From: Tubiluchus corallicola
Lineage: Eukaryota > Animalia > Priapulida
DNA length: 64,000 nucleotides
Direction of reading: 5' to 3'
NCBI GenBank assembly: GCA_030141605.1
Contig: JAQGDQ010000212.1
Location: forward strand, 318,769-382,768
A program made the translations under genes and the position numbers. Below are positions 12,661 through 49,756 of the stretch, in pieces; position 1 is the first letter of the stretch, and the number at the start of each line of letters is the position of its first letter. The notes under the pieces are model-generated. The model saw only the letters and a list, made by a program, of their open reading frames with translations, was not told the origin of the DNA and ran no database searches.

Positions 12661-12754
12661 GCAAAGCCATTGTTTTGACGTCATCAATTATACTCTGCCT
12701 ATAGCTTTAATTCAGTAAAAGCTGCTGCTACTGGCTTTGCGTTATAAGTGACAA

Positions 12755-13680
12755 GATGTTCAACAGATGTTAAATTGGTACACGTGCACCAGGCGTTAGA
12801 ATAGTACACATTCTATAGGTGTTAGACTGGTACACCTTCAAATAGGTGTTAAAGTGGTACACGCTCAACAGATGCTAGACTGATACACATTTGTCGCTTA
12901 TTGTACGCGATTGTGGTATTATGTAATCTATTTAATTGTCAGTTTTCTACAAATGTTTTTTAGCTGCAGCCTCAATATGCCTCCTCATCTCCTCGTTTCC
13001 ATGACTACTGAAAATTAGAAAGTTTGGAAGAGAAGCAACTAGTGAGCTTAATGTATTCTGCTATATAAGAAGCCAAGTAGATTTGATTTTGGTTTAACAT
13101 GTAGAGTATAGGTGACCTTTGCATGAATTAATGTACCTTCTAATAGGAACTTGTATGTCTGGTCATGTGATTAGAGCTTTATTCTCCCAGGCATGCAAGT
13201 TCCAGTTGGTCTTGAGACAGCATTTGGATAGGTTGAAAGTTTTCTACTGTAGTGGTATCATAATGTGTCATAAAAGTTTATAATCTGTGAACATTGTACA
13301 TTTTGCAATAATTTTGTTACAAGTTTTTTACAACATTCAACACGTGTTAGACTGGTATATGTTCAAAAGATGTTAAACTGGTACACCTTCAAACAGGTGT
13401 TAAACTGGTACACGCTCAACAGATGTTAAACTGGTACACGTGCAACAGGCGTTAGAATAGTACACATTCTATAGGTGTTAGACTGGTACACCTTCAAATA
13501 GGTGTTAAAGTGGTACACGCTCAACAGATGCTAGACTGGTACACATTCAACACTTGTTAGACTGGTATATGTTCAAAAGATGTTAAACTGGTACACGTGC
13601 AACAGGCGTTAGACTAGTGCACGTTCAACTGGTGCTAGACTGGTACACGTTTAACAGGTGTTGGACTGGTACACGTTTGC
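12755..13680. repeat. 26-bp minisatellite (aacaggtgttagactggtacacgttc-like) in two blocks, 12755-12890 and 13335-13680
   Basis: Tandem degenerate units; homologous arrays at 29270-29520 and 44490-45058. Confidence 0.9.
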
Positions 13681-16600
13681 GATAAAGACTATAAAAATTA
13701 TTCAAATGGTTATGTTAAATTTCATCCTCCTACTTCGAATTTAGAGCTACTTTTAACAGAAAATTAAACATAAATTTTATTCGACATTTTTAAAAGATTT
13801 ATTTTTTCTTTTTTTATTTACAATTGTTGCATGTGTGCTGTTCTGTGATTCCCTGAAATGAAATAAAACGAATAAACAAATAAACGTCCAGAAATTTTGA
13901 TCGTTTTGATATGTCAACTGGCAGGTACAGCTCGTAGTCAGGCGTCAAAATTTTTAATTTGAAAAAAGTTTGTTGACAATAATTTGTTACGGTCCTGATA
14001 ACAAAGCCCAAAAAAATGTTGGAGCAGGCGGAGGATATGTATTAAAATAATGGTGATGTTGTCAGTGATCAAATTAATCTGTTTGCAGCTAGATAAGAAC
14101 AAGAGAGCAAAAGAAAGGCTTCCTTGGTCGACCGACTGGCTCTACTGACGAGGATAATTGTCTCATTTAGAGGACAGATATATGTGTAAAGTTTGTCCGG
14201 ATCACTACCATTTCGACTAATTACGCAGTCGAAATTAGGCTGAATTTTTTTCTCTTCAACTATCCATTCCATTACACAGTTGCAGACAAACTTGGTTTCT
14301 GTAACAAGAAAGTTTTTAAACCAGGTAATGAGTTGGAAGGAATAAAGATAGAAAATAAGAAGCAGGATCACTACGCCACATCTCAAACTAAGCATACAGA
14401 CAGACATACAGATAGACATGAAAATCCCGTATGTCACTAGCTAGCAGGCCAGAAACTGGACATTTTGCTAAATATCGTACCTAACTGAAAGCGTTCAGTT
14501 TTGTGTACTGTGTTTCCTATCGGTAAAACATGTCAAAAATGTGAAAACTGTAAAAACTAGTTCTCGTTGACAAATGCGTGGTTTGTTTGATATCTCGCAC
14601 TTCCTATTATCTGACAATAAATGACAAAACTTATAAGTACCCACTGACGTATGCTGTGGTAACAAGTTTACCACAAATTATCCATACACTCAAAAACAAT
14701 AATATTTAGCTGAAATTCAACTGGAATAACTCCCTGATGTTCGCATGACACGTGCGCATATCTGAACCCGGGTTAGCGCGGGGAGGGGGGTTACTAAATA
14801 AATAAAAATAAATTGTTTGAAATGTGACTAATTTCGAAATAAACTTCTTGGTTCTTGTTGTGCAGTGTTTAATTAACCTTAAAAAAACAAAAACAAATGT
14901 TAGTACTAGTTGACAATATTTCTGACGTGGCCAGAAACTCAAGATTTTGCAACAATGGTTACAAATTTGAGCCTTAAAAATGAAGAGATGACAGTTTTTC
15001 TTGAAACAGCTTATTCTCTTTTATTGAATTCACCTTGCTTGAATACATAGGAAGTGCATTTCATAATGAAACCTCAGCCCATCAACCACGGGTCTAAGGC
15101 CAACCAATCTCGGCATAACTCATATCATTCAGTTTGTCCCATTGAGACCTTTCATTTGATGTACAACATGCATGCTAGATCTTGGAATACTTTTGGTAGA
15201 CCCCGGAAAGCATTTGTCTCTTCGAACCCTTTTTTCCCCAATAAGGTCACAGGTTAACGACTCACACTGTAACCTATACCATTCGATTCGCCTCATCAAG
15301 ACCTTTCATTTGATGTGTTACATGGTACTATTCGTTAGACACTCGATGAATTTCTGTTCCTGACCCCTACTGGGGTCAAAGATCAACTAGTTTCGGCATA
15401 ATTTAAACCATTCGGTTTGTCCCTTGTCCCATCGAGACCTTTCATTTGATATGCTACAAGCTAGTTCCGGTCGAACACGTCAAACAACTTTGGCATGGTA
15501 ACTATATGCCAAATATTGTGGCCCTAGCTCAAAAACTATGGGAGCAGATGGATCCTAAAGAAAATAAATGAAGAAATGACTGCTCCGTGACCTTTCACCC
15601 GGCAACTCGGGTGACATGTATGCGTGGATACCTTTGCTCTGAATGTACTCTGTGGGTTTTGTATCTCTAGCCTTCAGCATGCAAAAGGTCACCAATTTAG
15701 GGACCCAAATTTTGCATTTTGGCCCTTCACTTGGGCGTTTAAAGCTTGTCGGCTTTTTAAAACCCCAGGTGCACATCTACACTACAGTACCCAAATACTT
15801 GTGAAAAAAATGGAAAAAACGAAAGCAATAGGAGTTGAATCAAGGAAAAACTGACTAACGCCCATGTCCTTCGCCCTTGACCAGTGGTCAGCGGTCAACA
15901 TGCTGTTGTACGCCCCCCGCCCAGGGATACCCACTCTGTGAATTTGGTGACCTTAGCTTGCAAGGCTTAACAGTTATTAAGCGTTAAAGTTGCGGAGAAT
16001 AAATAATAAATCATATGATTAATAATAACCGGGTGAAAAACAGTAATATAGTTTTCGATATAAAAATTTTCGATGTTTTACAGTCAAAAAATCACAGGAC
16101 AAATGATATTTTGGGGGAAGTCTGTCCCATATTTTTTTAGCATTCGCTCAGATTTAGGGCAATTTTCTTTCTGTCCTGGCTTGTACGCCTATGTAAGACA
16201 ATGAGTAATAACTAGGCAATAACCTGTACATAACATTTACAAAGCATAGAAAATAAACAGTACATAAAACATTTTCCAGTCCTTGCAAGAAGCAATTTCG
16301 GTTCCGTAGATATTTCATTTTTTTGAAGATGGTAGCTCTCTAAATGCGGTCCAGTGTCTTTAGTACAGGCTAATAGATTCACAATATTCGTTTCGTGCGG
16401 ATAACTAGTCAGAATACCACATTTAACGCTGGTAAACAGCCCAGAAAACGAACATTTTAGTTCAGCAGTGGCCGCCATATTGAATGCTGGAGGCCAATCC
16501 TGTCGGTAGTTTAACCAATGTGCTGGCCAGGCCCCTAGTTGCCAAAGATGAATATTTATGACGTTTTGAAGTATTTTGACAAGATTTGACAACTCAGGTT

Positions 16601-17317: not shown

Positions 17318-17987
17318 CTTTCATTTCTAGGATGACACCTCTTGTTGCATTCAGATTTCGAGGTCTTTTAGGAAGATGTATTTTAAAATTGTCAACATCA
17401 TGTAAACCGGTGTGAGCTATAACAATGTTCTTAATGTTTTGGTTTTCGGAAAGGTCTAAGTCTACTTTCTGCAGCCAAGGAGCATGTATTATTTCAAGAC
17501 GTTCCATGGATTTCACCTCTTTGAAAGCGTCTGCAGCAATCCACTGAAGCTTCTCGTTCCACATCAACTTCAGTATGGTAGCTTGAGCACAAATACGCTT
17601 TGACTCAAGAGCCTGTAACTTGGATTGAATTATCTCCAATGTACTGAAAAGCTTTTCTCTTAGATAACATTTCGGAAGTGCGTTAGGAAGTATATTGTAA
17701 AGCTGCAACTGCTTTGTCTCCGATTTCAAGTCCCTGAATATATCATAAAGGTCAGTGTCGCCTAAATTAAGCTTCTTTCCACAGGTCATTTTGCAAGGAA
17801 GTTCAATTTCATAGGAACACAGCCGATCATTGAGTTCACCGCAATGCTTTTCATCGCCCACCTCGCGTAAATGCCGTTTCAAAACATCAGACTCAAAAAA
17901 CCCTTGGAGAGCAAAACTGGAATAAGATATTGAAAGGCCAACAAAGTGAACAAACGCCATCCATAAAATGGACTGCGCATGCAACAT
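17318..17987 (-). CDS. LRR gene copy A exon 1 (signal peptide, Cys cap, LRRs)
   Basis: Hydrophobic N-terminus; LMWNEKLQWIAADAFKEV..LEIIHAPWLQKVDL..IVIAHTGL resembles glycoprotein-hormone-receptor/Trk LRRs; phase-1 donor AAG|GTATAT. Confidence 0.8.
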
Positions 17988-18188
17988 GATGAAACCAGCA
18001 AATCAACATTTCAGGGTTGAATTCTGACAGCGATGACTTTAGTTGCCTTTGAGCACGGAAGTGTGTGCAACACTTAGTGACAGAGAAAACAGCAGTTTTC
18101 GAATATTTCGATTTCCTGCGTCATAATGCAATTGCGACTGATGTAATAACAATTTGAACATAAAAGTCAAAATACTAAACACAAGAAG

Positions 18189-19157: not shown

Positions 19158-19499
19158 CAAGAAGCTAGAGAACTGAAATTGAATATGTAAGAATAATGGC
19201 GCGCCCAGACTAGAGAGTTCTTTCGCATCTTAGATAGATGGATAGATAGATATTTTATTTCTGAAAATCAAATTTCCAACATGAGAATTACAAACTCGAC
19301 GCATACCCAATGGTTTTATCAGTGGGCAGAGCTCGGGTAATGATTTCCAGATCATACTAACAATTTGACTCAACATTGCTGCACAAGTTATATACACAGA
19401 TATACAAATTTAGTTGTAAACTCAATGAAGCGAAAAAAACTATTTACTAAGCATTTGTACACATGTGATAAACAAATATTTTACCTATATGATAATCAC

Positions 19500-19800
19500 A
19501 GTGATGCGGTTATGTGTACGCTAACAAAGCTATACTATTTAATTCACAAATCTATGCATACAGTCGTAAATGAAATTTCCAATTGACATTAATTCTCCGT
19601 CAAATAAATTTGCAATATTACTATAATTTAACGTGTACGGTGCTCTATAAATTGCATTTTCATGGCACTCGCACAAAAAATGCTCTTCTGTCTGAATTTC
19701 TCCACAAAGACATAGCCTGCGTTCACGAGGTACATTTGGCCAACGACCTGTTTCTATAGCTAGATTGTGTGATGAGTCCCTTATTCTTATTGCGCAACTT
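19500..19800 (-). mobile_element. LINE ORF2 C-terminal CCHC fragment
   Basis: SHNLAIETGRW..RERRLCLCGEIQTEEHFLCEC is a typical non-LTR retrotransposon C-terminal zinc knuckle. Confidence 0.75.
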
Positions 19801-24633: not shown

Positions 24634-26966
24634 TCAAATTCCATTTAATTCGTTTTCGAAGAACAGGCGTGCGTTCGGGTTGTACATTGCCCTCCACTTT
24701 GCCAGTCTGTAACACAATTTGAAACACAACATTGATGGTGTTGTACATATTAATGCATATGTTGTTAATAAATTATGCATTGTAATAAATTATTATGATA
24801 AAAATTTTAATCATACATACATGAAACGTATACATGAAACGTACATATACTTTTCATCCTTCAGATCTTGGAACATGTACTTGTATATTGTTCGGTCGTC
24901 AAGCCAAAATTTTTGCTTCTTTGGCCGTCCATGCACAGCACATAGAGTCTCATTAGCTTCGCCTAAAATGAAAAGAAAAAACTATTCACGAAGATGTGTA
25001 TGAACCTATCTTAAGAAAATAATTTATTTAATTACTCATTCGTTTGTTCACTGCCACACACATCAAACACAAATGCAAAAAAGTGGTTACAATTATACAA
25101 GAACATCATAAAACCATACAAGACAGTATTTTTGACGGACATGTATAACATGTTTAGATTATAGAGTATATATAATAAATTATCTAGCTGCTTGAATAAA
25201 CCTACTAGATATCAATGTATCAGCAAACCAGCCTTAACAAACCAGTAAACGTAGCATCACATCATAGGGTTTACAAAAGCTATGGAAAAAAATAACAAGT
25301 CCGGTGAGTTCCAAGGCCTAATAATATGGATCGTATAACAAATTAACGTTCATAGTCAGTGGTCTTTGGACTTGTTGGACAAATGGATGGGTGACAGTCA
25401 GAAAATTGTTGTTCTAAGCAGTCTTGAGATCAAGTAAGAAGTTTAAATAGCAAACATGATATATGCAAAAACAAAAATAAGATACCAGTGTGGGATCCTC
25501 CATCGAAGCATCCTTCAAGATCCCACAATGACTTTCTTTTCCATCCTCCACCACACCTAAATTAATGAGCGCATAATTACACATTAATTGCTGTTAGAAA
25601 CGTATAAAACTTTCTACATTGTGGGCAGCAGTTTTGTCACCTGAAGATGAAGCTGCCCGGACATTTGTGCTCCATGTAATGAACGTAAGAAAACAGATTA
25701 AGAGTCTCTAACTTCATCTAAAACTTACAACTGGCCACAGTTGAAAACTTTAAAAATAAGGCAGGAAAGGGAAGGATGAAAAGGGGAAATCTACCAGACT
25801 AATAAGGTGTGTGCAACCCATCAAACTCAGCCCAATTTTACTCCTACAGGATTAGAACTAAATGATAAAGTTCAAACAAGAGCTACAACGTCATGTCAAA
25901 ATCTGAGTTATAACTCTCATTGCCTAACGAAACGATTCTACACGGTGTCATAACACCTCTCAGGATGGGTTGCACATCCACATTATTCCATCACTTCGAT
26001 TTTTAAAACAGAATTCGACTATAGGAGCATTTATGCTATTTATCCTAAAGATACCACCAGTTGGTCAATGGCTGCTTATAATTATAATAGTTGCTTATTA
26101 GTTCAAAACATGCACGGTTTCTTTACCAAAAGCCCGACTGGCGTCTCATTCCACCCTCCTAGTCACAGGTTCACCTTAAACATATAGGTCTTTGAAACGG
26201 ACATACATCGGGCAAGAATCTTTTTTCATATAATAGCAGTATTTAAATATTAAAACAAATCGTGCTTCTTTTAGTTGTCGATACTTACCGTAAATAAATC
26301 AGGATCGCTGTTATAACGACTATGGATATTCCCATAACAGCAATGCCCAGCTTGTAGGCTGAAAAAGTAAATAATTTAGCTCTTATTATAAAATTGAAAT
26401 ATTCTATTTTTATCGATAGGACAGTCGGTAATTTGCATTCAAAGTGCCGCAAAACAAAGAATGAGTCCGTTATAATTTACATCGCAAAAGCGCATCAGCT
26501 CTAGCAAGACTATAAGCATTAAAATTAAAAAAATCAAACTTGGATTGTGAGTAATTAATAATTTTTAATTAATCATGAATTATCTAAATCTCCTGCTTGC
26601 CTACCTTCCCACCTACTTACCTATCTACCTACCTACCTATGTACCTACCTATTTATCTACCTACGTATGTACGTACGTACGTACGTACCTACTTACCTGC
26701 CTGCCTACACCCTTGACAATCCACATGCCTAAAACTGTTTAGATATATTCATACAAGGCAAGCAGGTATGAAAACTTTATTCTGTTAACTTCGTTTCCGA
26801 CACACTTCAAGCTATTCTATACTATACTACTCACTTCTATTGTGATCTATTTGTGCCGTTGCGTTTATTCTACAGTATTTTGTTTTGTTCTTTAGTAAGT
26901 CAGTCAGCCAGCCAGTTAGTCAATAAGCAAGTGAGTGAGTGAGTGAGTGAGTGAATGAGTAGGTAG

Positions 26967-27051: not shown

Positions 27052-30000
27052 CAGGCAGGCAGGCAGGCAGGCAGGCAAGCAAGCAAGCAAGCAAGCAAGC
27101 AAGTAAGTAAGTAAGCAGGCAGGCAGGCAGGCAGGCAGGCAGGCAAGCAAGCAAGCAAGCAAGCAAGAAAGCAATTAAGTAGCAAGTAAATAAGTGGTAG
27201 GTAGGTAGGTAGGTAGGTAAGTAGGTAGGTGGGTAGGTAGGTAGGTAGGTAGGTAGGTAGGTAGGTAAGTAAGCAAGCAAGCAAGCAAGCAATCAAGCAA
27301 GCAAGCAAGCAAGCAAGTAAGTAAGTAAGTAAGCAAGTAAGCAAGTAAGTAAATAGATGATTATTAATTAATCATAAATTATAAATAATTTATATAGGTA
27401 GGTAGGTAGGTAGGTAGGTAGGTAGGTAAGTAGGTATGTAGGTAGGTAGGCAGGTAGGTCACTCGTTCGGTTGGTCAATCGGTCGGTAGGTAGGTAGGTG
27501 GCTGGGTGGGTGGGTTTTTAGGTAAGTAGGTAGGTACGTGGGTAGGTAAATAGGGAGGTAAGTATGTAGGTAAGCAGGTCGGTAGGTAGATAGGTGAGGT
27601 GGATTATTTGGTATAAAAATAGTAGGTAGCCTAATGTTTTAAGTAGGTAGATAGATAGATAGGTAGGTAGCCAGCAGGTATATAGGTGGGTAGGTAAATG
27701 GGTAGGTTAGATAGGTAGGCAGGTAGGAAGGAAAGTATGTAATCAGGTAGGTAGGCAGGTAGGTAGCTAGTGCTCCTCTGAAAATTTTCTGCACCACTTG
27801 TACTTCTTAACGTTTTCACTGCCCAAGTGTCACTGCTCAAGTGTGCTGCCCGTTGCCCAAATGTCAACTGCCCAAGTGTTGGAAAAATGGTGAACAATTG
27901 ATATATACGTACAGAGTATAAAACTGTAGGTTCAGGCAGTCTTTCAGGGTTATTATTGGATTGAAAAAACGTACCTAATATAATCTCCATTGTAATCCAA
28001 CCAAATAAAAAAAACTTTAAATAAGGAGCGAAAGAGATGTGTCTTGTCTCTTCCCTTCGCAGTCTAAAACTCGCAGTTGTTTTGTTGCTATGAAACCTCT
28101 CCGGGGTTACAATTGTGACGCGAGATCCTAGCGCGTCTCCTGTTTAGGTACCTATAGCAGCAAAACACGGCGACTGACGTAGCCATCATAACAGCTTTTA
28201 TCCAAGCCCAAAGCCACACACGCGCCTACAGCATTCTGTAGAAATTACTCCTCGCTCGCCCGTGATAAGATTCGTACTTTCCCATTTACGATTTTTAATA
28301 CAAGTCTCGATCTAGTGTCGTGCCATTGGGGGTTGATTTTTCGAATCGGGCCCACCGCGAGGAATGGGGAGCAAAAATCCTCCAAAAATGGCCATTTTTC
28401 GGCCGTTTTTTGCAAAATTATACGTCTGAGATCATGAAAACGGGAACGGCAATGGGTGGTGCTGGATACGGATAGATAGCCCGTTCAGCGCTGGATGTCA
28501 TAGGCGTATTTAGAATTTGCGAGAGGGCCACGGCGCCCCACAACGGGCGTTTTCCCAGACCCAACTCACGATATTTTCGAAATTTTGACCAAACAGCATG
28601 CGGAAAAAACGTTTTAGGGGCGCCTGGTGGGACTCTCGGAAAGAGATATACAGCTCTTTAGAAAGAGCAAGAACAGGGCTACACGATGGCGGGGGCTATA
28701 TTTTAGGACACGTCCACCAAGAGGAGTGCCAACGAGTTAATTAGATGTTCTATTATCCGCAATTTTCGCTTAGAAAACTGTTGACGCAAAGCCATTGTTC
28801 TGACGTCATCCATTATACTCTGCTTATAACCTTTTAACTTTAATTCAGTAAAAGCTGCTACTGGCTTTGCGTTATAAGTGAGGACTAGGTAGGATGTTCG
28901 CGTATTTTTGATTATACGTGTATTTATACGCACAATTTTTTGCGGGGCCTTTGCTAGCACTACAATTGTGCAACTTCCTATTTTGGTCGAAAGCACACCA
29001 TGTGCCAAAACATCATTATAAAATTTCTTTATTAAGGGTGAGCATTGAATGTTCGGGTTCGAACATTCGAATCGAATTCGAAAATCATAAATTAGATTCG
29101 ATTTCGTTTTCTGGTAGAAAATGCTCTCCCCTAGTGTTTCTACAAATAAAATTATGTTTAACTTAGAGGTGACATCCTTCATATCAAATCTTTAAGTTTT
29201 GTTGTATTGTTCTATTTTGTGTTTCTAACAGTGTCGATTTCTGTAGTCCCAGTGGTGATCTGCTATCTGGTAACTGGTATACGTTCAACAGGTGTTAGAC
29301 TAGTACACATTCTATAGGTGTTGGACTGGTACACCTTCAAACAGGTGTTAAAGTGGTACACGCTCAACAGATGCTAGACTGGTACACATTCAACAGGTGT
29401 TAGACTGGTATATGTTCAAAAGATGTTAAACTGGTACACGTGCAACAGGTGTTAGACTAGCACACGTTCAACTGGTGCTAGACTGGTACACGTTTAACAG
29501 GTGTTGGACTGGTACACGTTTGCGATAAGACTATAAAAATTATTCAAATGGTTATGGTAAATTTCATCCTCCTACTTCGAAATTAGATCTACTTTTAACA
29601 GCAAAATTAAACATAAATTTTAATCGACATTTTTAAAAGATTTCTTTTTCTTTTTTTTATTTTCATATTGTTGCATGTGTGCTGTTCTGTGATTCACTGA
29701 AATGAAATAAAACGAATAAACAAATAGACGTCCAGAAATTTTGATTGTTTTGATACATCAACTGGCAGGTACATAATTTTTATTTATATATATATATATA
29801 TACGATTTTTTAATTTGAAAAAAGTTTGTTGACAATAATTTGTTACGGTCCTGATCGTATTTATTTAGGAATTTAAAGTCGAATAACAAAGTATGGATTC
29901 TAACAAAGCCCAAAAAAATGATGGAGCAGGCGGAGCATATGTATTAAAATAATGGTGATGTTGTCAGTGATAAAATTAATCTGTTTGCAGCTAGATAAGA

Positions 30001-31788
30001 ACAAGAGAGCAAAAGAAAGGCTTCCTTGGTCGACTGACTGGCTCTACTGACGAGCATAAGTGTCTCATTTAGAGGACAGATATATGTGTAAAGTTTGTGC
30101 AAACGAACACCATTTCGACTTGGTTTTACGCAGTCGAAAGTAGGCTGAATTTTTTTCTCTTCAACTATCCATTCCATTATACAGTTGCAGACAAACTTGG
30201 TTGCTGTAACAAGAAAGGTTTTAAACCATGTAATGAGTTGGAAGGAATAAAGATAGTAAATTGAGAAGCAGGATCACTAAGCCACAGCTCAAACTAAGCA
30301 TACAGATAGACATACAGATAGACATGAAAATCCCGTATGTCACTAGCTAGCAGGTCAGAAACAGGACATTTTGCTAAATATCGTGCCTAGCTGAAAGCGT
30401 TCAGTTTTAAGTACTGTGTTTCCTATCGGTAAACATGGCAAAAATGTGAAAACTGTAAAAACTAGTTCTCGTTGACAAATGCGTGGTTTGTTTGATATCT
30501 CGCACTTCTTATTGTCTGACAATAAATGACAAAACTTATCCACATTACATTATTAACTCTATTCACATACATATCGATATTTTTGCCCCCGCCCCCGCAG
30601 TGGGTGAGATACAAGACTTTGAAATGACTGAGTATTTGCATCTTGTGCATAACGCGAGCTTAAAGTCCCCTGTAGAGCCGAAAGAGGGGGGTTTGGGACA
30701 AAAGTCGTCAAGTCATTTTGGAGAAGATAACAAGATCCAATACTGTGCAGAGTCAGATCTATTCAAACTCAGTAGTTGCTGCACGACTAATCCTTCAAAT
30801 ATGAGTAAAAAATAGAGAAAAATAGGTATTTTTTCGTGAAAATCGGCCTATGCCGTACCTCTGCTACTATGAGGAGTTGGGCCAAGCGGATTCATATTGT
30901 GAATACTAGTGGACCTCATACCCATACCTTTGGTCTGAATCGGTTTACCTAACCTTGTGCCGTATTTTTCCGATTTTGCATGGTCTTCTTGTGGACGCGT
31001 TCTTAATTCGTTTTACCTTAATTGTTGGCTAGTCTTATAATTTGTGTTTTTAAAATTTGCCCAAAAAACAAGCAGGACAAAGATTTGAAATTATAGCTTT
31101 GCTACTAAAATTTTCTAGGAATTGCGAATATACCTTTCATTTCTAGGATGACACCTCTTGTTGCATTCCGACTTCGAGGTCTTTTAGGAAGATGTATTTT
31201 AAAATTGTCAACATCGTGTAAACCGGTGTGAATTATAGCAATGTTCTTAATGATTGGGTTTTCGTAAAGATCTAAGTCTACTTTCTGCAGCCAAGGAGCA
31301 TGTATTATTTCAAGACGTTCCATGGCTGTCATCTCTTTGAAAGCGTCTGCAGCAATCCACTGAAGCTGCTCGTTCCACATCAACCTCAGTATGGTAGCTT
31401 GAGCACAAATACGTTTTGACTCAAGAGCCTGCAACTTGGATTCAATTATCTCCAATGTACTGAAATACTTTTCTACTAGATAACAATACCGAAGTGCATT
31501 AGGAAGTATATTGTAAAGCTGCAACTGCTTTGTCTCCCATTTCAAGTTCCTGGCAATTTCATCGAGTTCTCCACGGCCTAAATCAACCTTCTTTCCACAG
31601 GTCATTTTGCAAGGAAGTCGCATTTCATAGGAACACAGCCGTAAATCTTTACTGCAATTCTTTCCGTCGCCCGCCTCGTGTATAACATCAGACTCAAAAG
31701 ACCCTTGGAGAGCAAAACTGGAATAAGATATTGAAAGGCCAACAAAGTGAACAAACGCCATCCATAAAATGAACTGCGCATGCAACAT
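24634..31788 (-). CDS. Single-pass LRR receptor-like protein, copy B
   Basis: Exons 31788-31134 (SP+LRR), 30203-30052 (LRRCT; the junction gives LEMK-ATKFVCNCIMEW), 29110-~28805 (stalk, end uncertain), unresolved small exons, 26358-26289 (TM YKLGIAVMGISIVVITAILIYLR), 25556-25486, 24962-24851, 24706-24634 (stop). The last four exons chain in phase with GT-AG ends. Confidence 0.75.
26289..26358 (-). CDS. Transmembrane exon of LRR gene copy B
   Basis: ctttttcag|...|gtaagt; encodes a ~20-residue hydrophobic stretch followed by Arg. Confidence 0.75.
26590..27770. repeat. Compound tetranucleotide microsatellite (TAGG/TAAG/CAAG/CAGG/TGAG)
   Basis: Visible directly; produces the spurious LLTY/LLAC ORFs. 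Confidence 0.95.
29270..29520. repeat. 26-bp minisatellite, copy B
   Basis: Same unit as 13335-13680. Confidence 0.9.
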
Positions 31789-35800: not shown

Positions 35801-36860
35801 GCCAATACTGAATCAATTGATGAACACGTTAATAAAATTATAAACTTAATTCAAGAGGCAACAGATAATGCCCATTCTGCCTTACATGATGCTCAAATAG
35901 CTCAAGAGAAATGGTTTAATAATATGGCTAGTGCACGAACTCTAGAGGTTGGCCAGAAAGTCATGCTTCTTAAACCAGCAAAACCTGGTAAACTGAATCG
36001 AGGTCCCTATGTTGTAACCGATAAGATATCAGATGTGAACTACAAAATCGGTATGGGTGGAACAGGCAGAAAGAGAAAAATTCGATCATTCCATATTAAC
36101 TTGTTGAAACCTTACCATGATCGTGAAGAGCAGTTAATTCTCTATAATGGTCGTGTTAGTCAATGTTGTTTTGGTTCTGCTGTCACTGATGATGATGACA
36201 TTTGTGATGTGTGTGTAGGCAGTAACCCTGATAACGATGAAGTTCTTGTGTATGATAGGGAACTCAGTCCTTCAGAGGTTGGACAACTTCCTGATTATAC
36301 TTTTCCCCCCTTAGCTGTGGCTACGCAGTCTTTAGAAGACATCATGTTTCCAGATTATTTGACTAAAGAACAGAAACAACAACTAAAGGTTGTTTGTGAG
36401 GAATTTGCTTCAACGTTTACTGATTTACCTGGACGTACTTCAGTCGTCCAACATCACATTAACCTGACAGATATGACACCGGTTAGGCAAAGGGCTTACC
36501 GTATCCCTTACCATTGACGAGAAATTGTCAGGAGGGAATTAAATGAAATGCTTAGGCTTGAAGTAATTCGTCGTTCAGAATCTGATTTGTCATCCCCCAT
36601 AGTTCTTGTACCAAAAGGTGATGGCACAATCCGTTTCTGCGTTGATTATCGTTTGCTGAATGCCCAAACTTCATTTAATGTGTATCCTATCCCATGTATA
36701 GACGACATCATTGATGAGTTACATAGCGCAAAATTCATATCAACACTTGATCTCAGCAAAGCCTTTTGGCAAATCGAGCTTTCAGAGGCTTCAAGGCCAG
36801 TTTCAGCCTCTGTAACAGATATCGAAAGTTTGAGTGGACCGTAATGCCATTTCGTCAAAT
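32834..36860 (+). mobile_element. Decayed Gmr1-like Ty3/Gypsy LTR retrotransposon (gag-SCAN-CCHC, PR, INT, RT), frameshifted and truncated in RT
   Basis: SCAN-like YRERFR..PDETYRQF..W..LEQIF (33689-34000); CFTCGLWGHRRADC (34141-34182); protease RDSGA; integrase H..H..C..C, MDLIGP, TDKG, VERYNQ; then RT SPIVLVPKGDGTIRFCVDYR..LDLSKAFWQI. No LTR pair recognised. Confidence 0.9.
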
Positions 36861-39402: not shown

Positions 39403-41878
39403 TCAAATTCCATTCAATTCGTTTTCGAAGAACAGGCGTGCGTTCGGGTTGTACATTGCCCTCCACTTTGCCAGTCTGTAACACAATTTGAAACACAATA
39501 TTGATGGTATTGTACATATTAATGCATATGTTGTTAATAAATTATGCATTGTAATAAATTATTATGATAAAAATTTTAAATGAAACGCACATATACTTTT
39601 CATCCTTCAGATCTTGGAACATGTATTTGTATATTGTTCGGTCGTCAAGCCAAAATTTTTGCTTCTTTGGCCGTCCATGCACAGCACATAGAGTCTCATT
39701 AGCTTCGCCTAAAATGAAAAGAAAAAAACTATTCACGAAGATGTGTATGAACCTATCTTAAGAAAATAATTTATTTAATTACTCATTCGTTTGTTCACTG
39801 CCACACACATCAAACACAAATGCAAAAAAGTGGTTACAATTATACAAGAACATCATAAAACCATACAAGACAGTATTTTTGACGGACATGTATAACATGT
39901 TTAGATTATAGAGTATATATAATAAATTATCTAGCTGCTTGAATAAACCTACTAGATATCAATGTATCAGCAAACCAGCCTTAACAAACCAGTAAACGTA
40001 GCATCACATCATATCGTTTACAAAAGCTATGGAAAAAAATTACAAGTCCGGTGAGTTCCAAGGCCTAATAATATGGATCGTATAACAAATTAACGTTCAT
40101 AGTCAGTGGTCTTTGGACTTGTTGGACAAATGGATGGGTGACAGTCAGAAAATTGTTGTTCTAAGCAGTCTTGAGATCAAGTAAGAAGTTTAAATAGCAA
40201 ACATGATATATGCAAAAACAAAAATAAGATACCAGTGTGGGATCCTCCATCGAAGCATCCTTCAAGATCCCACAATGACTTTCTTTTCCATCCTCCACCA
40301 CACCTAAATTAATGAGCGCATAATTACACATTAATTGCTGTTAGAAACGTATAAAACTTTCTACAGGGTGGGCAGGAAATTTTGTCACCTGAAGATGAAG
40401 CTGCCCTGACATTTGTGCTCCATGTAATGAACGTAAGAAAACAGATTAAGAGTCTCTAACTTCATCTAAAACTTGCCACTGGCCACAGTTGTAAACTTTA
40501 AAAATAAGGCAGGAAAGGGAAGGGTGAAAAGGGGACTTCTACCAGACTAATAAGGTGTGTGCAACCCATCAAACTCCTCCAATTTTACTCCTACAGGATT
40601 AGAACTAAATGATAAAGTTCAAACAAGAGCTGCAACGTCATGTCAAAATCTGAGTTATAACTCTCATTGCCTAACGAAACGATTCTACACGGTGTCATAA
40701 CACCTCTCAGGATGGGTTGCACATCCACATTATTCCATCACTTCGATTTTTAAAACAGAATTCGACTATAGGAGCATTTATGCTATTTATCCTAAAGATA
40801 CCACCAGTTGGTCAATGGCTGCTTATAAGTATAATAGTTGCTTATTAGTTCAAAACATGCACGGTTTCTTTACCAAAAGCCCGACTGGCGTCTCATTCCA
40901 CCCTCCTAGTCACAGGTTCACCTTAAACATATAGGTCTTTGGAACGGACATACATCGGGCAAGAATCTTTTTTCATATAACAGCAGTATTTAAATATTAA
41001 AACAAATCGTGCTTCTTTTAGTTGTCGATACTTACCGTAAATAAATCAGGATCGCTGTTATAACGACTATGGATATTCCCATAACAGCAATGCCCTGCTT
41101 GTAGGCTGAAAAAGTAAATAATTTAGCTCTTATTATAAAATTGAAATATTCTATTTTTATCGATAGGACAGTCGGTAATTTGCATTCAAAGTGCCGCAAA
41201 AACAAAGAATGAGTCCGTTATAATTTACATCGCAAAAGCGCATCAGCTGTAGCAAGACTATAAGCATTAAAATTAAAAAAATCAAACTTGGATTATGAGT
41301 AATTACTAATTTTTAATTAATCATGAATTATCTAAATCTCCTGCTTGCCTACCTTCCTAATTACTTACCTATCTACCTACCTATGTACCTACCTATTTAT
41401 CTACCTACGTACGTACGTACGTACCTACTTACCTGCCTGCCTACACCCTTGACAATCCACTTGCCTAAAACTGTTTAGATATATTCATACAAGGCAAGCA
41501 GGTATGAAAACATTATTCTGTTAACTTCGTTTCCGACACACTTCAAGCTATTCTATACTATACTACTCACTTCTATTGTGATCCATTTGTGCCATTGCGT
41601 TTATTATACAGTATTTTGTTTTGTTCTTTAGTAAGTCAGTCAGCCAGCCAGCCAGTCAATAAGCAAGTGAGTGAGTGAGTGAGTGAGTGAGTGAGTGAGC
41701 AAGCGAGTGAGCGAGCGAGCGAGCAAGCAAGCAAGCAATTAAGTAAGCAAGCAAGTAAGTGGTAGGTAGGTAGGTAGGTAGGTAGGTAGGTAGGTAGGTA
41801 GGTAGGTAGGTAGGTAGGAAGGTAGGTAGGTAGGTAGGTAGTTAGGATTGTAGGTAGGTAGTTAAATAAGTAAGTAAA

Positions 41879-41968: not shown

Positions 41969-44900
41969 GGTAAGTAGGTAAGCAGGTAAGCAGGTAAGCA
42001 GGTAAGCAGGTAAGCAGGTAAGCAGGTAAGCAAGTAAGCAAGTAAGCAAGCAAGTAAGCAAACAAGCAAGCAAGTAATTAGTGTTCGACTATTAATTTTC
42101 ACAATTATGCAATAATTATATAATTAACTACGGTAGTGGATTACGTACTTAGTTTATTAGTTAGTTTTTGGTTGTCAGTCAGTGAGCTAAGAAGGAAGGT
42201 AGGTCGGTAAGTAGGTAGGTAGGTAGGTAGGTAGGTAGGTAGGCAGGCAGGTAGGTGGCTGGGTGGGTGGGTTTTTAGGTACGTAGGTAGGTACGTGGGT
42301 AGGTAAATAAGGAGGTAAGTAAGTAGGTAAGCAGGTCGGTAGGTAGGTAGGTGAGGTGGATCATTTAGTATAAAAATAGTATGTAGCATAATGTTTTAAG
42401 TAGGTAGGTAGATAGATAGATAGATAGGTAGGTAGCCAGCAGGTATATAGGTGGGTAGGTAAGTAGGTAGGTTAGATAGGTAGGCAGGTAGGCAATGAAA
42501 GTATGTAATCTGGTAGGTAGGCAGGTAGGTAGCTAGTGCTCCTCTGAAAATTTTCTGCGCCACTTGTACTTCTTAACGTTTTCACTGCCCAAGTGTCACT
42601 GCTCAAGTGCGCTGCCCGTTGCCCAAATGTCAACTGCCCAAGTGGCACAGCCTAGTGTTTACTGCATGAGTGCCTGCTGCCCAAATTTCCACTCCCCAAG
42701 TGTTCACTGCCCAAATGTCACTCAGCCCACATATGTTTGGCTACCACTGGACTGTCATTCACTTCCCAAGTGCCAACTGCCCAAGTGTCCATTGCCTAAA
42801 TGTCCAATGCGCTGGTGGCTTATATCCTGACAGATCAGTAACTGATTCGTAAGTCAATAACTGTTTCGTGCATGCAGTATTCGGGCAACAAAGTTCTCTG
42901 TAAGAACAACGTTAGCTTACACGCAGCTCGGTCACATGAGAGGTAGGGTCCCTCAACATCGCACACTGGTTATGACATCAAGCCAATTTTTACAAGTGAT
43001 ATTTTCTGTTGATCAGCCAAACACGTGGATTTGCCAGAGCGAAAATAGGAAGTGAGGGACAGAAACATAATAATTAGCCACTAAGACAGTTGTCGAACTT
43101 TTTCGCGCATGTTGGAAAAATGGTGAACAATTGATATATGCGTACAGAGTATAAAACTGTAGGTTCAGGCACTCTTTCAGGGTTATCATTGGATTGAAAA
43201 AACGTACCTAATATAATCTCCATTGTAATCCAACCAAATAAAAAACTTTAAATAAGGAGCGAAAGAAATGTGTATTGTCTCTTCCCTTCGCAGTCTAAAA
43301 CTCGCAGTTGTTTTGTTGCTATGAAACCTCTCCGGGTTTAAAATTATGACCCTAGTGCGTCTCCTGTTTAGGTACCTATAGCAGCAAAACACGGCGACTG
43401 ACGTAGCCATCATAACAGCTTTTATCCAAGCCCAAAGCCACACACGCGCGTACAGCATTCTGTAGAAATTATTCCCTGCTCGCCCGTGATAAGATTCGTA
43501 CTTTCTCATTTACGATTTTTAATGCAAGTCTCGATCTAGTGTCGTGCCATTGGGGGTTTATTTTTCGAATCGGGCCCATCGCGAGGAATGGGGGCAAAAA
43601 TCCTCCAAAAATGGCAATTTTTCGGCCGTTTTTTGCAAAAGTTATACGTCTGAGATCTGGAGAACGGGAACGGGCAATGGGTGGTGCTTGCTACGGATAG
43701 ATAGCCCGTTCAGCGGTCGGTGCCATAGGCGTATTTAGAATTTGCGAGAGAGCCACGGCGCCCCGCAACGGGCATTTTCCCGGACCCAACTCGAGATTTT
43801 TTTCGAAATTTTGACCAAACAGCATGCGGAAAAAACGTTCTAGCGGCGCCTGGTGGGACTCTCGGAAAGAGATATACGGCTCCTTGGAAAGAGCAAGAAC
43901 AGGGCTACACGATGGCGGGGGCTATATTTTAGGACACGTCCACCAAGAGGAGTGCCAACGAGTTAATTAGATGTTCTATTATCCGCAATTTTCGCTTAGA
44001 AAACTGTTGACGCAAAGCCATTGTTCTGACGTCATCCATTATACTCTGCTTATAACCTTTTAACTTTAATTCAGTAAAAGCTGCTACTGGCTTTGCGTTA
44101 TAAGTGAGGACTAGGTAGGATGCTCGCGTATTTTTGATTATACCTGTATTTATATGCAAATTTTTTTGCGGGGCCTTTGCTAGCACTACAATTGTGCAAC
44201 TTCCTATTTTGGTCGAAAGCACACCATGTACCAAAACATCATTATAAAATTTGTTTATTAAGGGTGAGCATTCAATGTTCGGGTTCGAACATTCGAATCG
44301 AATTCGAAAATCATAAATTAGATTCGATTTCGTTTTCTGGTAGAGAATGCTCTCCCCTAGTGTTTGTACAAATAAAATTATGTATAACTTAGAGGTGACA
44401 TCCTTCATATCTTTATGTTTTGTTGTATTGTTCTATTTTTTGTTTCTATCAGAGTCGATTTCTGTAGTGCCGGTGGTGATCTGCAATCTGGTAACTGGTA
44501 TATGTTCAACAGGTGTTAGACTAGTACACATTCTACAGGTGTTAGACTGGTACACCATCAAACAGGTGTTAAACTGGTACACGCTCAACAGATGTTAAAC
44601 TGGTACACATGCAACAGGCGTTAGAATAGTACACATTCTACAGGTGTTAGACTGGTACACCTTCAAAAAGGTGTTAAAGTGGTGCACGCTCAACAGATGC
44701 TAGACTGGTACACATTCAACACGTGTCAGACTGTTATATGTTCAAAAGATGTTAAACTGGTACACCTTCAAACAGGTGTTAAACTGGTACATGCTCAACA
44801 GATGTTAAACTGGTACACGTGCAACAGGCGTTAGAATAGTACACATTCTATAGGTGTTAGACTGGTACACCTTTAAACAGGTGTTAAAGTGGTACACACT

Positions 44901-47900
44901 CAACAGATGCTAGACTGGTACACATTCAACACGTGTTAGACTGGTATATGTTCAAAAGATGTTAAACTGGTACACGTGCAACAAGCGTTAGACTAGTACA
45001 CGTTCAACTGGTGCTACACTGGTACACGTTTAACAGCTGTTGGACTGTTACACGTTTGCGATAAAGACTATAAAAACTATTCAAATGGTTGTGGTAAATT
45101 TCATCCTCCTACTTCGAAATTAGAGCTACTTTTAACAGCAAAATTAAACATAAATTTTAATCGACATTTTTAAAAGATTTATTTTTTCTTTTTTTATTTA
45201 CAATTGTTGCATGTGTGCTGTTCTGTGATTCCCTGAAATGAAATAAAACGAATAAACAAATAGTCGTCCAGAAATTTTGATCGTTTTGATATGTCAACTG
45301 GCAGGTACAGCTCGTAGTCAGGCGTCAAAATTTTTAATTTGAAAAAAGTTTGTTGACAATAATTTGTTACGGTCCTGATCGTATTTATTTAGGAATTTAA
45401 AATCGAATAACATGTATGGATTCTAACAAAGCCCAAAAAAATGTTGGAGCAGGTGGAGCATATGTATTAAAATAATGGTGATGTTGTCAGTGGTAAAATT
45501 AATCTGATTGCAGCTAGATAAGAACAAGAGTGCAAAAGAAAGGCTTCCTTGGTCGACCGACTGGCTCTACTGACGAGGATAATTGTCTCATTTAGAGGAC
45601 AGATATATGTGTAAAGTTCGTCCGGATGACCACCATTTCGACTTGGTTTTACGCAGTCGAATGTAGGCTGAATTTTTTTCTCTTCAACTATCCATTCCAT
45701 TATACAGTTGCAGACAAACTTGGCTTCTGTAACAAGAAAGGTTTTAAACCAGGTAATGAGTTGTAAGGAATAAAGATAGTAAATTGAGAAGCAGGATCAC
45801 TACGCCACAGCTCAAACTAAGCATACAGACAGACATACAGATAGACATGAAAATCCTGTATGTCACTAGCTAGCAGGTCAGAAACTGGACATTTTGCTAA
45901 ATATCGTACCTAGCTGAAAGCGTTCAGTTTTATGTACTGTGTTTCCTATCGGTAAAACATGGCAAAAATGTGAAAACTGTAAAAACTAGTTCTCGTTAAC
46001 GAATGCGTGGTTTGTTTGATATCTCGCACTTCCTATTATCTGACAATAAATGACAAAACTTATAAGTACCCACTGACGTATGCTGTGGTAACAAGTTTAC
46101 CACAAATTATCCATACACTCAAAAACATTATTATTTAACTGAAATTCAACTGGAATAACTTCCCAGATGTTCGCATGAAACGTGCGCATATCTGAACCTG
46201 GTTCAGAAAAAACAATTAATTTAAAGAAAAACACAGTTATATAGGGTGTAAAACAGAGCTTCAGCCTTCAGGATAAAACTGAACAAAGAATTTGATTTTA
46301 ATATCTAAAGTTATGTTCTCTCGACACATCAAATTTTGCCCATAAAGCTTAGCTCTTTATTTTTCCACGTAGACTGTTAAGAACGGTTCCGCGAGAGCAC
46401 CATGCAGGCGGTGGCACATGAGGGGTGACGAATTTATATCATTTTTTTAACATGAAGGGCGACCCGCCAGAACCATGTAACCAAGATATCAAATCGATCG
46501 AGCTACTATTGGCAGAGAAATGACCACATGAAGAAATTGACCTCAAAAGTGGCAAAAATTCGCTATTTTATGGCGTTATTTTAACTTTTTCTCCTGTATA
46601 AACTATTATAGATGGGTCGATGTAAGTTGGCCGGTACATAAACCTAAACATTGTCTTCTGATATCCTAACTTTTTCTGACATACTATTAATAGTATCAGA
46701 GAACGGGATTTTTCAAAATCTTTGTTAAGAGTCCAGGGAGAGGTTAAGTTGTAAGGCTCATAACTCGATCACTGCGGGGCTACAGAACTTCTGGTTTTCA
46801 TGTATGTGTTAACCATCGTCCTCACTAATATTATAAAAAAGAAAATTCGCTCGAGCCTGTTTCAGTATTTAGTACTAGCACTTTAATATTCCACAACAAT
46901 CAGCAAAATTCGCCTTTTTTGTATTTTTTCTATATTTTTTCTATCTAAATGCTGGATTATAAGTGACAAATCTGTATTCCAAATTTCATGAAAACGCACG
47001 AGCTGAGATAATATCATGCATGACATTATATAGAGGGGGCACTGTTAGAAAAACTGCCATATCAACAAACTTTTTTACTTTCCATAGTAATTCCGTCCAT
47101 GTGTAAAAAGTAGACATACTTGGCTCAGGTCGTATATGACAGTAAACATTTAGCCACGTTTAACCTGCGTTTTCTGTGACTAGTGCTCTCATTTCCTAGT
47201 AGCAATAGATTCCTTTGCCATGGAAATTGCAAGAAATTTGCGAATTTCATCTTAAATTGGTTTAGTTATGTCGGAATTTTCATATGACTACAAATATGAA
47301 TAATTGCCTCTTCTGACAGATTTCGGACAGGACATCATGCATGCCCCTAGTACTGAGTCCGACCCTGATTCACGGCATTCTCTACACACTGAATCGCTAA
47401 TGGATATCAGGAAAGACTAAACAATAAGCCATCTATTAGAAAAGGAGTACCGATTGTTAAGACTGAGAGTCATTGCTAGCGAAAGAATCTGAAAATTCGG
47501 TATATACATGTAAAATAGAAATCTGTTCATTTTTTATACATCTATTCATTTTTTATACTTTTTATATGAATAAGCTTTATGGCTTTATAGAGAAAGAATT
47601 ATCGATGCAGGTAGATTAGCACTAGAAGATAGATACAGAAATATAGACAAATATATCATGGGGAAAGTGATAAAGCAAAAATCTTACAGTCTAAACATGG
47701 GACAATATAAGCGTATGGGCCGCTTCTAGGGGGATGGCGGTGACATTTAGCTCAGAAAATTTTTCTTCGCCCAAAATTTATTTGTGGCACAAAATCGATA
47801 CTTCTGTCAAAAAATACTAATAGTGCGATTGAATGACTGCGCCAATGGCACAAAAATTTTCGATGTTTTACAGTCAAAAAATCACAGGACAAATGATATT

Positions 47901-49756
47901 TTGGGGGAAGTCTGTCATATATATTTTAGGCATTCGCTCAGATTTAGGGCAATTTTCTTTCTGTCCTGGCTTGTACGCCTATGTAAGACAATGAGTAATA
48001 ACTAGGCAATAACCTGTACATAACATTTACAAAGCATAGAAAATAAACAGTACATAAAACATTTTCCAGTCCTTGCAAGAAGCAATTTCGATTCCGTAGA
48101 TATTTAATTTTTTGAAGATGGAAGCTCTCTAAATGCAGTCCAGTGTCTCTAGTACAGGCTAATTGATTCACAATATTCGTTTCGTGCGGATAACTAGCCA
48201 GAATACCGCATTTAACGCTGGTAAACAGCCCAGAAAACGAACATTTTAGTTCAGCAGTGGCCGCCATCTTGAATGCTGGAGGCCAATCCTGTCGGTAGTT
48301 TAACCAATGTGCTGGCCAGGCCCCTAATTGCCAAAGATGAATATTTATGACGTTTTGAAGCATTTTGACTAGATTTGACAACTCATGTTTACCTACACGA
48401 AGCTTTTTGATGAACGTTGTTACCTATATTTTTACCCTGATATATGCCTCTTTCAGGGGTCATTTACAATAGGGTGGAAATTCGCTCCATCGAAATTGTC
48501 ACTGCAGCATAGTGGGATGGGATGCTCTATTCACATACATATCGATATTTTTGTCCTAGCCCCTGCAGTGGGTGAGATATAAGACTTTGAAATGAGTGAG
48601 TATTTGCATCTTGTGCATAACGCGAGCTAGAAGACCCCCTGTAGAGCCGAAAGAGGGGTGTTTGGGACAAAAGTCGTCAAGTCATTTTGGAGAAGATAAC
48701 AAGATCCAATACTGTGCAGAGTCAGATCTATTCAAACACAGTAGTCGCTGCATGACTAATTCTTCAAATATGAGTAAAAAATAGAGAAAAATAGGTAATT
48801 TTTCATGAATTTCGGCCTATGCCGTACCTCTGCTACTATGAGGAGTTGGGCCAAGCGGATTCATATAGTGAATACTAGTGGACCTCATACCCATACCTTT
48901 GGTCTCAATCGGTTTACCTAACCTTGTGCCGTATTTTTCCGATTTTGCATGGTCTTCTTGTGGACGCGTTCTTAATTCGTTTTACCTTAATTGTTGGCTA
49001 GTCTTATAATTTGTGTTTTTAAAATTTGCCCAAAAAACATGCAGGACAAAGATTTGAAATTATAGTTTTGCTACTAAATTTTCTAGGAATTGCGAATATA
49101 CCTTTCATTTCTAGGATGACACCTTTTGTTACATTCAGACTTCGAGGTCTTTTAGGAAGATGTATTTTAAAATTGTCAACATCATGTAAACCGGTGTGAG
49201 CTATAACAATGTTCTTAATGATTGGGTTTTCGGAAAGATCTAAGTCTACTTTCTGCAGCCAAGGAGCATGTATTATTTCAAGACGTTCCATGGCTGTCAT
49301 CTCTTTGAAAGCGTCTGCAGCAATCCACTGAAGCTTCTCGTTCCACATCAACCTCAGTATGGTAGCTTGAGCACAAATACGCTTTGACTCAAGAGCCTGC
49401 AACTTGGATTCAATTATCTCCAATGTACTGAAATACTTTTCTACTAGATAACAATACCGAAGTGCATTAGGAAGTATATTGTAAAGCTGCAACTGCTTTG
49501 TCTCCCATTTCAAGTTCCTGGCAATTGCATCGAGGTCTCCACGGCCTAAGTTAACCTTCTTTCCACAGGTCATTTTGCAAGGAAGTCGCATTTCATAGGA
49601 ACACAGCCGTAAATCTTTACTGCAATTACTTCCATCGCCCACCTCGTGTATAACATCAGACTCTAAAGACCCTTGGAGAGCAAAACTGGAATAAGATATT
49701 GAAAGGCCAACAAAGTGAACAAATGCCATCCATAAAATGAACTGCGCATGCAACAT
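39403..49756 (-). CDS. Single-pass LRR receptor-like protein, copy C
   Basis: Exons 49756-49102, 45726-45575, 44336-~44031, unresolved small exons, 41105-41036 (TM), 40303-40233, 39708-39597, 39475-39403. Same lengths, phases and splice sites as copy B; tail differences are synonymous only. Confidence 0.75.
41345..42535. repeat. Compound tetranucleotide microsatellite, copy C
   Basis: Visible directly; homologous to 26590-27770. Confidence 0.95.
44490..45058. repeat. 26-bp minisatellite with ~210-bp higher-order periodicity, copy C
   Basis: The same order of monomer variants recurs at 44586 and 44796. Confidence 0.85.

What the first reader, a model, noticed from the sequence alone, without database searches (positions are those of the whole stretch)
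12661..49756. Tandem family of single-pass LRR receptors with a hormone-receptor/Trk-like ectodomain but no TIR, kinase or 7TM
Seen: the ORF track shows only disconnected pieces, but they splice together. Exon 1 joins exon 2 in phase to rebuild an LRR-to-LRRCT junction (LEMKETKFVCNCVMEW, compare LxLxxNPFxCxCxLxW). Four small exons mostly missed by the track chain in phase to give a TM helix and an ~85-aa tail ending in a stop. Established: the LRR wording resembles FSHR/TSHR repeats (N..L..I.AD.F..I.NTG) and Trk repeats, but those receptors carry a 7TM or kinase, and TLRs carry a TIR. Inference: a lineage-specific, possibly undescribed receptor family. The exons between stalk and TM are not firmly resolved.
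Basis: partly seen in the sequence, partly recalled or inferred. Interest (0 to 1): 0.85.

Follow-up and report, generated by a model that had tools for sequence, protein, structure and literature searches.

The report
Orphan LRR cell-surface receptor cluster
Three neighbouring gene copies in an unidentified animal genome are predicted to encode a small leucine-rich-repeat cell-surface protein with no known signalling domain, likely a recognition receptor made in a membrane-spanning and possibly a lipid-anchored form; this layout is already known in animals, but this family has no named relative in the searches made.

Summary
The cluster is real, and the gene model needed one correction. There are three minus-strand paralogs. 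Copies A and B each splice with canonical sites into six exons and 381 aa: predicted signal peptide, capped LRR solenoid (about 6 repeats), one TM helix, 85-aa tail, stop.

Exon 2 more likely uses a phase-1 donor after 30039/45562 and joins the TM exon directly. Left unspliced, exon 2 reads on to a GPI-signal-like end in all three copies. Two of the three unnamed animal-type relatives end the same way. So a GPI/TM isoform pair is plausible, and copy C, which lacks the TM exons in the window, could be GPI-only.

The FSHR/Trk likeness is generic: fold matches to TLR13, LGI1, FSHR and LRRC26 tie at Z about 14. The layout is the known 'LRR_Only' class (for example LRRC19). Paralog divergence clusters in the N-cap and first repeats, which suits ligand recognition, but dN/dS above 1 is not significant. 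All junctions are predictions. The scan's earlier notes hold nothing on this family.

Verdict: new orphan member of a known kind.

The parts
49102..49756 (-). Copy A exon 1: predicted signal peptide, Cys-capped N-terminus and about 5 LRRs (655 nt, phase-1 donor)
   Evidence: (AF2 pLDDT about 90 over residues 61-200)
45562..45726 (-). Copy A exon 2, spliced form: LRRCT with 4 Cys; phase-1 donor after 45562
45467..45561 (-). Copy A exon 2 read-through: GPI-signal-like C-terminus of a predicted 304-aa short form; AATAAA 77 nt past the stop
41036..41105 (-). Copy A TM exon (phase 1 in)
40233..40303 (-). Copy A tail exon 1
39597..39708 (-). Copy A tail exon 2 (holds a YxxM-type motif)
39403..39475 (-). 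Copy A last coding exon, ends in the stop
31134..31788 (-). Copy B exon 1
30039..30203 (-).
29944..30038 (-). Copy B exon 2 read-through, GPI-signal-like end (304 aa); AATAAA 78 nt past the stop
28304..28957 (.). Also at 43528-44183, 12311-12751 and 56310-56500
29033..29133 (.).
26289..26358 (-). Copy B TM exon
25486..25556 (-). Copy B tail exon 1
24851..24962 (-). Copy B tail exon 2
24634..24706 (-). Copy B last coding exon, ends in the stop
17318..17987 (-). Copy C exon 1 (open; 12-nt and 3-nt in-frame insertions; divergent N-cap)
14069..14298 (-). Copy C exon 2 with read-through to a GPI-signal-like end (299 aa); no TM or tail exons follow in the window

Best explanation
This is a recent tandem cluster of genes predicted to encode a small extracellular LRR protein of the LRR_Only kind, likely a ligand-recognition receptor that is predicted to be made as a 381-aa single-pass form (copies A and B) and possibly also as a roughly 300-aa GPI-anchored form (A, B and C). 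Shown by sequence or computation: the duplications, open in-phase exons, an LRR solenoid fold, one TM helix followed by basic residues, no room for a TIR, kinase or 7TM domain, and divergence concentrated in the N-cap and first repeats. Inferred: the capped solenoid binds a variable extracellular ligand, most likely microbial or self/non-self. The TM form would pass the signal on through an adaptor-binding tail (three Tyr, one YxxM-type motif; motif recalled, not tested) or through a separate signalling partner. The GPI form would act as co-receptor or decoy. The choice between forms would be made by using or skipping a splice donor that sits right after the predicted GPI attachment site.
For: Six-exon, 381-aa open models in 2 of 2 complete copies, with exon GC 0.41-0.49 in the TM and tail exons against 0.19-0.36 in their flanks. 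The 3 length differences among the window's copies in exons 1-2 are multiples of 3. The TM exon is unique in the window: 2 hits on both strands, 0 of 300 simulated. Fold is an LRR solenoid, Z up to 14.4, rmsd 2.5, 157 aligned. The exon-2 read-through passes a crude GPI rule in 3 of 3 copies, as do P0003 and P0004; 265 of 20,000 random non-coding starts pass (1.3%). It aligns with those relatives' C-termini. Copy C differs from A and B at 10-17 of 100 columns over 49660-49376 against 0-8 elsewhere. Non-synonymous divergence in the ectodomain (about 52 and 61 of 570 sites) exceeds that of adjacent intron 1 (22 of 563, 25 of 564; p 4e-4 and 7e-5).
Against: pN/pS is 1.4-1.55 for C against A/B, but the N-versus-S test is not significant (p 0.33 and 0.23). 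Silent sites in the divergent patch are also raised (pS 0.12-0.13), so gene-conversion mosaicism alone could explain the patch. The identical A/B tail is not proof of constraint, because the neighbouring introns differ by only 0.6-2.1%. A tail variant in run X3 has 6 amino-acid changes from 9 substitutions, one of them in the YxxM-type motif. The GPI rule is home-made and was written after seeing the sequence. The read-through differences among copies are not silent, and C has an earlier stop. The diverged paralog that supports the donor choice has a net loss of 10 letters inside exon 2 and is probably broken there. The signal peptide rests on hydropathy only (peak 1.62). Ligand and function are untested.
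Confidence: 0.5

Rival explanations
1. Same gene structure, but the protein is an adhesion, guidance or auxiliary-subunit protein (like Connectin, LRRTM, 5T4 or the LRRC26 channel subunit). The copy divergence would reflect recent duplication, relaxed constraint and gene conversion.
For: Many top fold and profile matches are neural or auxiliary eLRRs (LGI1, LRRC26, LRRTM2, SALM, AMIGO). The LRR_Only class includes such proteins (PMC2235866 passages). dN/dS above 1 is not significant.
Against: Recent triplication, a further diverged paralog in other DNA runs, and divergence focused on the N-cap and first repeats are more typical of recognition loci such as the three-gene APL1 cluster (PMC3050937, abstract).
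Confidence: 0.27
2. Only one product exists per gene. Either the TM form is the only one and the read-through end is chance, which leaves C a truncated pseudogene or secreted form, or extra small stalk exons lie between exon 2 (donor 30052/45575) and the TM exon.
For: The phase-0 donor is conserved in 3 of 3 window copies and scores 6 of 9. A 31-nt exon at 45232-45202 would bridge phase 0 to 1 in A and C.
Against: That 31-nt exon starts with a stop codon and lacks its donor in B. The stop version is present in 4 of 4 DNA runs (2 samples). No other single phase 0-to-1 exon was found in B. Read-through ends resemble those of P0003 and P0004.
Confidence: 0.1
3. It is a derivative of a glycoprotein-hormone receptor (LGR) ectodomain, acting as a hormone co-receptor or decoy, possibly with the neighbouring 7TM genes as a split receptor.
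For: TSHR and FSHR rank high in Foldseek, though none reaches E 0.001. FSHR is hit by the profile. A 7TM gene lies head-to-head 1.5 kb from copy A.
Against: Fold scores tie with unrelated LRR proteins. The solenoid closes with a CxC-type LRRCT after about 6 repeats. The 60 best of 298 PDB matches of the neighbouring 7TM are all amine receptors.
Confidence: 0.07
4. The copies are decaying pseudogenes carried in a segmental duplication.
For: pN is about equal to pS. Copy C is truncated, and a paralog in other runs is frameshifted.
Against: Exon 1 and exon 2 are open in 3 of 3 copies, all window indels in them are triplets, and A and B are complete. The X3 tail variant has no stop.
Confidence: 0.06

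Closest known systems
Extracellular LRR 'LRR_Only' class (Dolan et al. 2007, PMC2235866; passages read), e.g. LRRC19 (364 aa: SS, LRRNT, 6LRR, LRRCT1, TM), nyctalopin (TM in mouse, GPI in human), Connectin (GPI)
   Same: Signal peptide, capped LRR solenoid, LRRCT, then a TM helix or GPI anchor, and no other domain. The paper describes many lineage-restricted, rapidly diverging members.
   Different: No orthology to any named member was shown (best PDB profile E 6e-7, spread over many families). Here both anchors may come from one gene, and there are recent tandem paralogs.
TLR-like LRR-only proteins, including Hydra LRR-only plus TIR-only pairs (PMC8609888; passages read)
   Same: LRR sensor without a TIR domain; it would need a partner or adaptor to signal.
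   Different: Only about 6 repeats and an 85-aa Tyr-bearing tail. No TIR-only partner was seen in the window, and partnership was not tested.
Anopheles APL1A/B/C (PMC3050937; abstract and outline read)
   Same: Three-gene LRR cluster with high diversity.
   Different: APL1C is described as secreted (PMC10898737, abstract start in the search listing). No sequence kinship was shown, and population data are lacking here.
FSHR/TSHR (LGR) and Trk ectodomains
   Same: LRR solenoid with similar repeat wording (profile E 6e-6 to FSHR).
   Different: No 7TM, no Ig domains, no kinase. Fold similarity is no higher than to TLR13, LGI1 or chondroadherin.
Unnamed Logan proteins P0001, P0003, P0004
   Same: 26-33% identity over exon 1, same element order and the same LRR-to-LRRCT junction. 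P0003 and P0004 end in GPI-like tails.
   Different: None shows a TM helix plus cytoplasmic tail. P0001 has an extra LRRCT-like unit at its N-terminus. Their organisms and functions are unknown.

Membership tests
eLRR LRR_Only (type I TM or GPI) | LRR solenoid | tested here: met
   AF2 model and VIA-align Z 14.4 to eLRR proteins; profile hits. Pfam found nothing on exon 1.
eLRR LRR_Only (type I TM or GPI) | Cys-rich N- and C-caps | tested here: met
   Four N-terminal Cys plus CxC and two further Cys in exon 2, in 3 of 3 copies.
eLRR LRR_Only (type I TM or GPI) | Signal peptide | tested here: inconclusive
   N-terminal helix 2-27 in the model; hydropathy peak 1.62. No SignalP available.
eLRR LRR_Only (type I TM or GPI) | One TM helix or GPI signal | tested here: met
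   KD 2.58 over 19 aa, followed by basic residues. GPI-like read-through by a crude rule. The splice is predicted.
eLRR LRR_Only (type I TM or GPI) | No other domain | tested here: inconclusive
   No Pfam hit for 5 of 5 exon pieces and no PDB hit for tail exon 2. The pieces are only 22-85 aa and the joined tail was not scanned against a library.
Toll-like receptor | Cytoplasmic TIR domain | tested here: not met
   The predicted tail is 85 aa and ends in a stop in 2 of 2 copies. Alternative splicing to a distant exon is not excluded.
Glycoprotein-hormone receptor / LGR | LRR ectodomain fused to 7TM | tested here: not met
   One TM only. The neighbouring 7TM genes are on the other strand, and the one searched is amine-receptor-like.
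Glycoprotein-hormone receptor / LGR | Binds a cystine-knot hormone | not testable with these tools
   No ligand sequence of this species was at hand.
Trk / LRR_Ig | Ig domains and Tyr kinase | tested here: not met
   LRRCT is followed within about 15 aa by the TM helix, and the tail is too short for a kinase.
Variable lymphocyte receptor | Incomplete germline gene with flanking LRR cassettes | tested here: inconclusive
   Germline exons are complete and tblastn finds only the three copies in the window. The genome outside the window was not available.

The most novel reading that the evidence does not exclude
An undescribed, rapidly diversifying invertebrate LRR immune or allorecognition receptor family. 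One splice donor placed just after the GPI attachment site switches each gene between a lipid-anchored sensor and a Tyr-tailed signalling receptor. Copy number and anchor type vary among paralogs and individuals, and the TM-plus-tail module was added to an ancestrally GPI-anchored gene.
Probability: 0.2. Interest if true: 0.7.

Novelty: new member of a known kind. Interest (0 to 1): 0.38.

Why it matters
TIR-less LRR surface proteins are numerous in animal genomes and mostly without known function. These genes are invisible to Pfam (0 hits on exon 1) and broken up by small exons and repeats, so annotation pipelines would likely miss or mis-splice them. If both isoforms are real, the locus is a compact test case for how a GPI-anchored sensor gains its own signalling tail. 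The divergent N-cap also points to where ligand specificity would lie. If not, it is one more lineage-restricted LRR_Only gene cluster.

Tried and rejected
- No whole genome is held for this window, so family size outside the window and the organism's lineage were not determined.
- Expression: no RNA holder listed. The one RNA-guess run covered only the repeat (3 of 30 bins). Neither says anything about expression.
- Homolog searches with exon 1: 0 hits among 728 longer candidates. 4 hits at E up to 0.001 among 1.84 billion representatives, one of them a generic bacterial-type LRR protein. The alignment search returned only 2 of its own members among 3,869 candidates. Metagenome scan: 124 pattern matches, 0 confirmed.
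- The ESM Atlas gave no result.
- The neighbouring GPCR returned one unnamed relative (70%) and no lineage clue.
- Foldseek gave no match at E up to 0.001.
- 31-nt micro-exon (45232-45202): first favoured, then set aside.
- Donor GTAGAG (after 30048/45571) is also in phase but weak (3 of 9) and is not excluded.
- Split LGR with the neighbouring 7TM: rejected. No complex prediction was run.
- Reading the conserved A/B tail as purifying selection: rejected, because the introns are equally alike.
- Literature searches showed no paper on this family in their listings; two searches returned 0 papers. The organism is unknown and subscription papers are not covered, so a prior description is not excluded.
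- Four look-ups in the scan's earlier notes gave nothing relevant.
Full report
Setting. The window is AT-rich animal-type DNA (GC 0.30-0.44) with many repeats. No genome is held for it, and the organism's lineage was not determined. A self-comparison shows a segmental unit repeated on the minus strand: copy A (about 50168-37481), copy B (about 32302-21234) and a shorter copy C (about 19481-12311).

Gene model. Exon 1 (655 nt in A and B, 670 in C) ends in a phase-1 donor and joins exon 2 at a canonical acceptor in 3 of 3 copies. Three unnamed relatives found by an unindexed search of 1.84 billion representatives (P0001, P0003, P0004; 26-33% identity, E 2e-7 to 8e-4; the fourth hit is a generic LRR protein) carry the same LRR-to-CxC junction in single ORFs. 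That is independent support for this splice. A rule-based scan of both strands of the whole window found 2 TM-type exons, those of A and B, and 0 in 300 simulated 4-kb introns (thresholds chosen after seeing the exon).

Correction of the stalk. DNA contigs laid on copy B show 28304-28957 to be an interspersed repeat. Summed depth in X1 is 0.5-1.3 million against 700-5,700 over the exon bins, with 53 and 94 loose ends at its borders (depth is not copy number). A 72% copy lies at 56310-56500. The acceptor at 29110 is inside a 101-bp element with terminal inverted repeats. The TM exon needs a phase-1 partner, and exon 2 has one 13 nt further on (after 30039 in B, 45562 in A). With it, A and B both give six exons and 381 aa. 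Against this: that paralog has a net loss of 10 letters inside exon 2 and is probably broken. The phase-0 donor also matches consensus as well or better. A 31-nt bridging exon would work in A and C, but it begins with a stop in B, and the stop version is present in 4 of 4 runs from 2 samples (contigs show presence only).

A second possible product. If exon 2 is not spliced it stays open for a further 26-31 codons. It ends in small residues, a polar spacer and a hydrophobic C-terminus, with AATAAA 77-78 nt past the stop in A and B. A crude GPI rule of my own is passed by 3 of 3 copies and by P0003 and P0004 (not P0001), and by 265 of 20,000 random non-coding starts. The read-through aligns with the C-termini of those two relatives, and the P0004 model ends in a helix at 256-272. 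The donor sits directly after the predicted attachment site in A and C. For B the rule's best-scoring site lay further downstream. GPI/TM switching by splicing and polyadenylation is recalled for NCAM and CD58; I saw only a reference title on NCAM (in PMC2200109). Copy C has open exons 1-2 but no TM or tail exons in the 12.3 kb downstream. Its likeness to A and B stops at the repeat's edge. There it runs on into letters like the loose-end consensus of that repeat, which suggests loss of the 3' half by recombination between repeat copies (inference). C could therefore make only the GPI-type form.

Fold and kinship. The exon-1 model is confident over residues 61-200 (mean pLDDT 78) and is an LRR solenoid. 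The best matches tie: TLR13 14.4, LGI1 14.3, chondroadherin 14.2, FSHR 14.2, LRRC26 14.1 (rmsd 2.5-2.9, 148-157 aligned). Foldseek ranks TSHR first but at E 0.011. The family profile hits SALM5, LRRC15 and Slit2 ahead of FSHR. So the hormone-receptor wording is real but not diagnostic. The 7TM gene head-to-head with copy A is amine-receptor-like (the 60 best shown of 298 PDB matches), which rules against a split LGR. The tail exons have no Pfam hit and tail exon 2 has no PDB hit. They are short, and the joined tail was not scanned against a library, so a remote fold remains open.

Evolution. A and B differ at 25.5 non-synonymous and 8.5 synonymous positions, with none of the former in the last 104 codons. 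The 3' introns are equally alike (0.6-2.1%), so this is not proof of tail constraint. A tail variant in X3 carries 6 amino-acid changes and no stop. C differs from A and B at 10-17 of 100 columns over the N-cap and first repeats, and at 0-8 elsewhere. Ectodomain pN (0.085-0.098) exceeds intron-1 divergence (0.039-0.044; p 4e-4 and 7e-5). pN over pS (1.4-1.55) is not significant (p 0.33, 0.23), and pS in the patch is also raised. Diversifying selection and gene-conversion mosaicism are both compatible with this.

Mechanism. Most likely a cell-surface recognition protein. The capped solenoid would bind a variable ligand. [quoted passage not shown] The GPI form would be a co-receptor or decoy. 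Gene structure and fold are supported by calls. Splicing, the second isoform and function are inferred.

Comparison with what is known. Dolan et al. 2007 (PMC2235866, passages) list 161 LRR_Only proteins in four species, 94 type I TM and 14 GPI. They include LRRC19 with the same layout and size, and nyctalopin with TM in mouse and GPI in human, and the paper notes many rapidly diverging lineage-specific members. The finding is thus a new, unnamed member of a known kind. It fails the defining features of TLR, LGR and Trk. Six literature searches (listings only, apart from the papers named) showed no description of this family. With the organism unknown, and supplements and subscription papers unseen, that is weak. 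Interest 0.38: a correct and hard-to-annotate gene cluster with one worthwhile lead (the GPI/TM switch), but an ordinary architecture.

Noticed in passing
window 51283-52296 and 57348-58355 (+); fragment 55597-55826: Two tandem single-exon rhodopsin-type GPCR genes (7tm_1, E about 5e-24); the first is amine-receptor-like by PDB search and lies head-to-head 1.5 kb from copy A. It has one unnamed relative at 70% identity.
   Followed up: partly
window 32910-36844 (+): Ty3/gypsy-like retrotransposon ORFs in several frames (gag-, protease-, integrase- and RT-like wording, recognised from memory) between copies A and B.
   Followed up: no
window 52514-53804, 60280-63380 (+), 19539-19874 (-): Fragments resembling non-LTR retrotransposons (RT-, endonuclease- and ORF1-like wording, recognised from memory).
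   Followed up: no
window 49778 (and the same place in B and C): An out-of-frame ATG lies 22 nt upstream of the predicted start and would open a frame of about 38 codons overlapping the signal-peptide codons. It may lie outside the mRNA or may dampen translation.
   Followed up: no
runs X1-X4 laid on window 45542-45800 and 31257-31725: Contigs of a further, more diverged paralog: one about 84% alike in exon 1, one with a net loss of 10 letters in exon 2. Whether they are the same gene is not shown. The A-type and C-type exon 2 were not seen among the listed rows, which hints at copy differences between individuals.
   Followed up: partly
window 13336-13677, 29273-29520, 44494-45056: A 26-bp minisatellite in intron 2 differs in length among the copies (13, 9.5 and 21.5 units).
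   Followed up: no
window 43186-43509 (-): A 107-codon open frame with a hydrophobic stretch in intron 2 of copy A, interrupted by a stop in copy B and without a Pfam hit; probably chance.
   Followed up: partly
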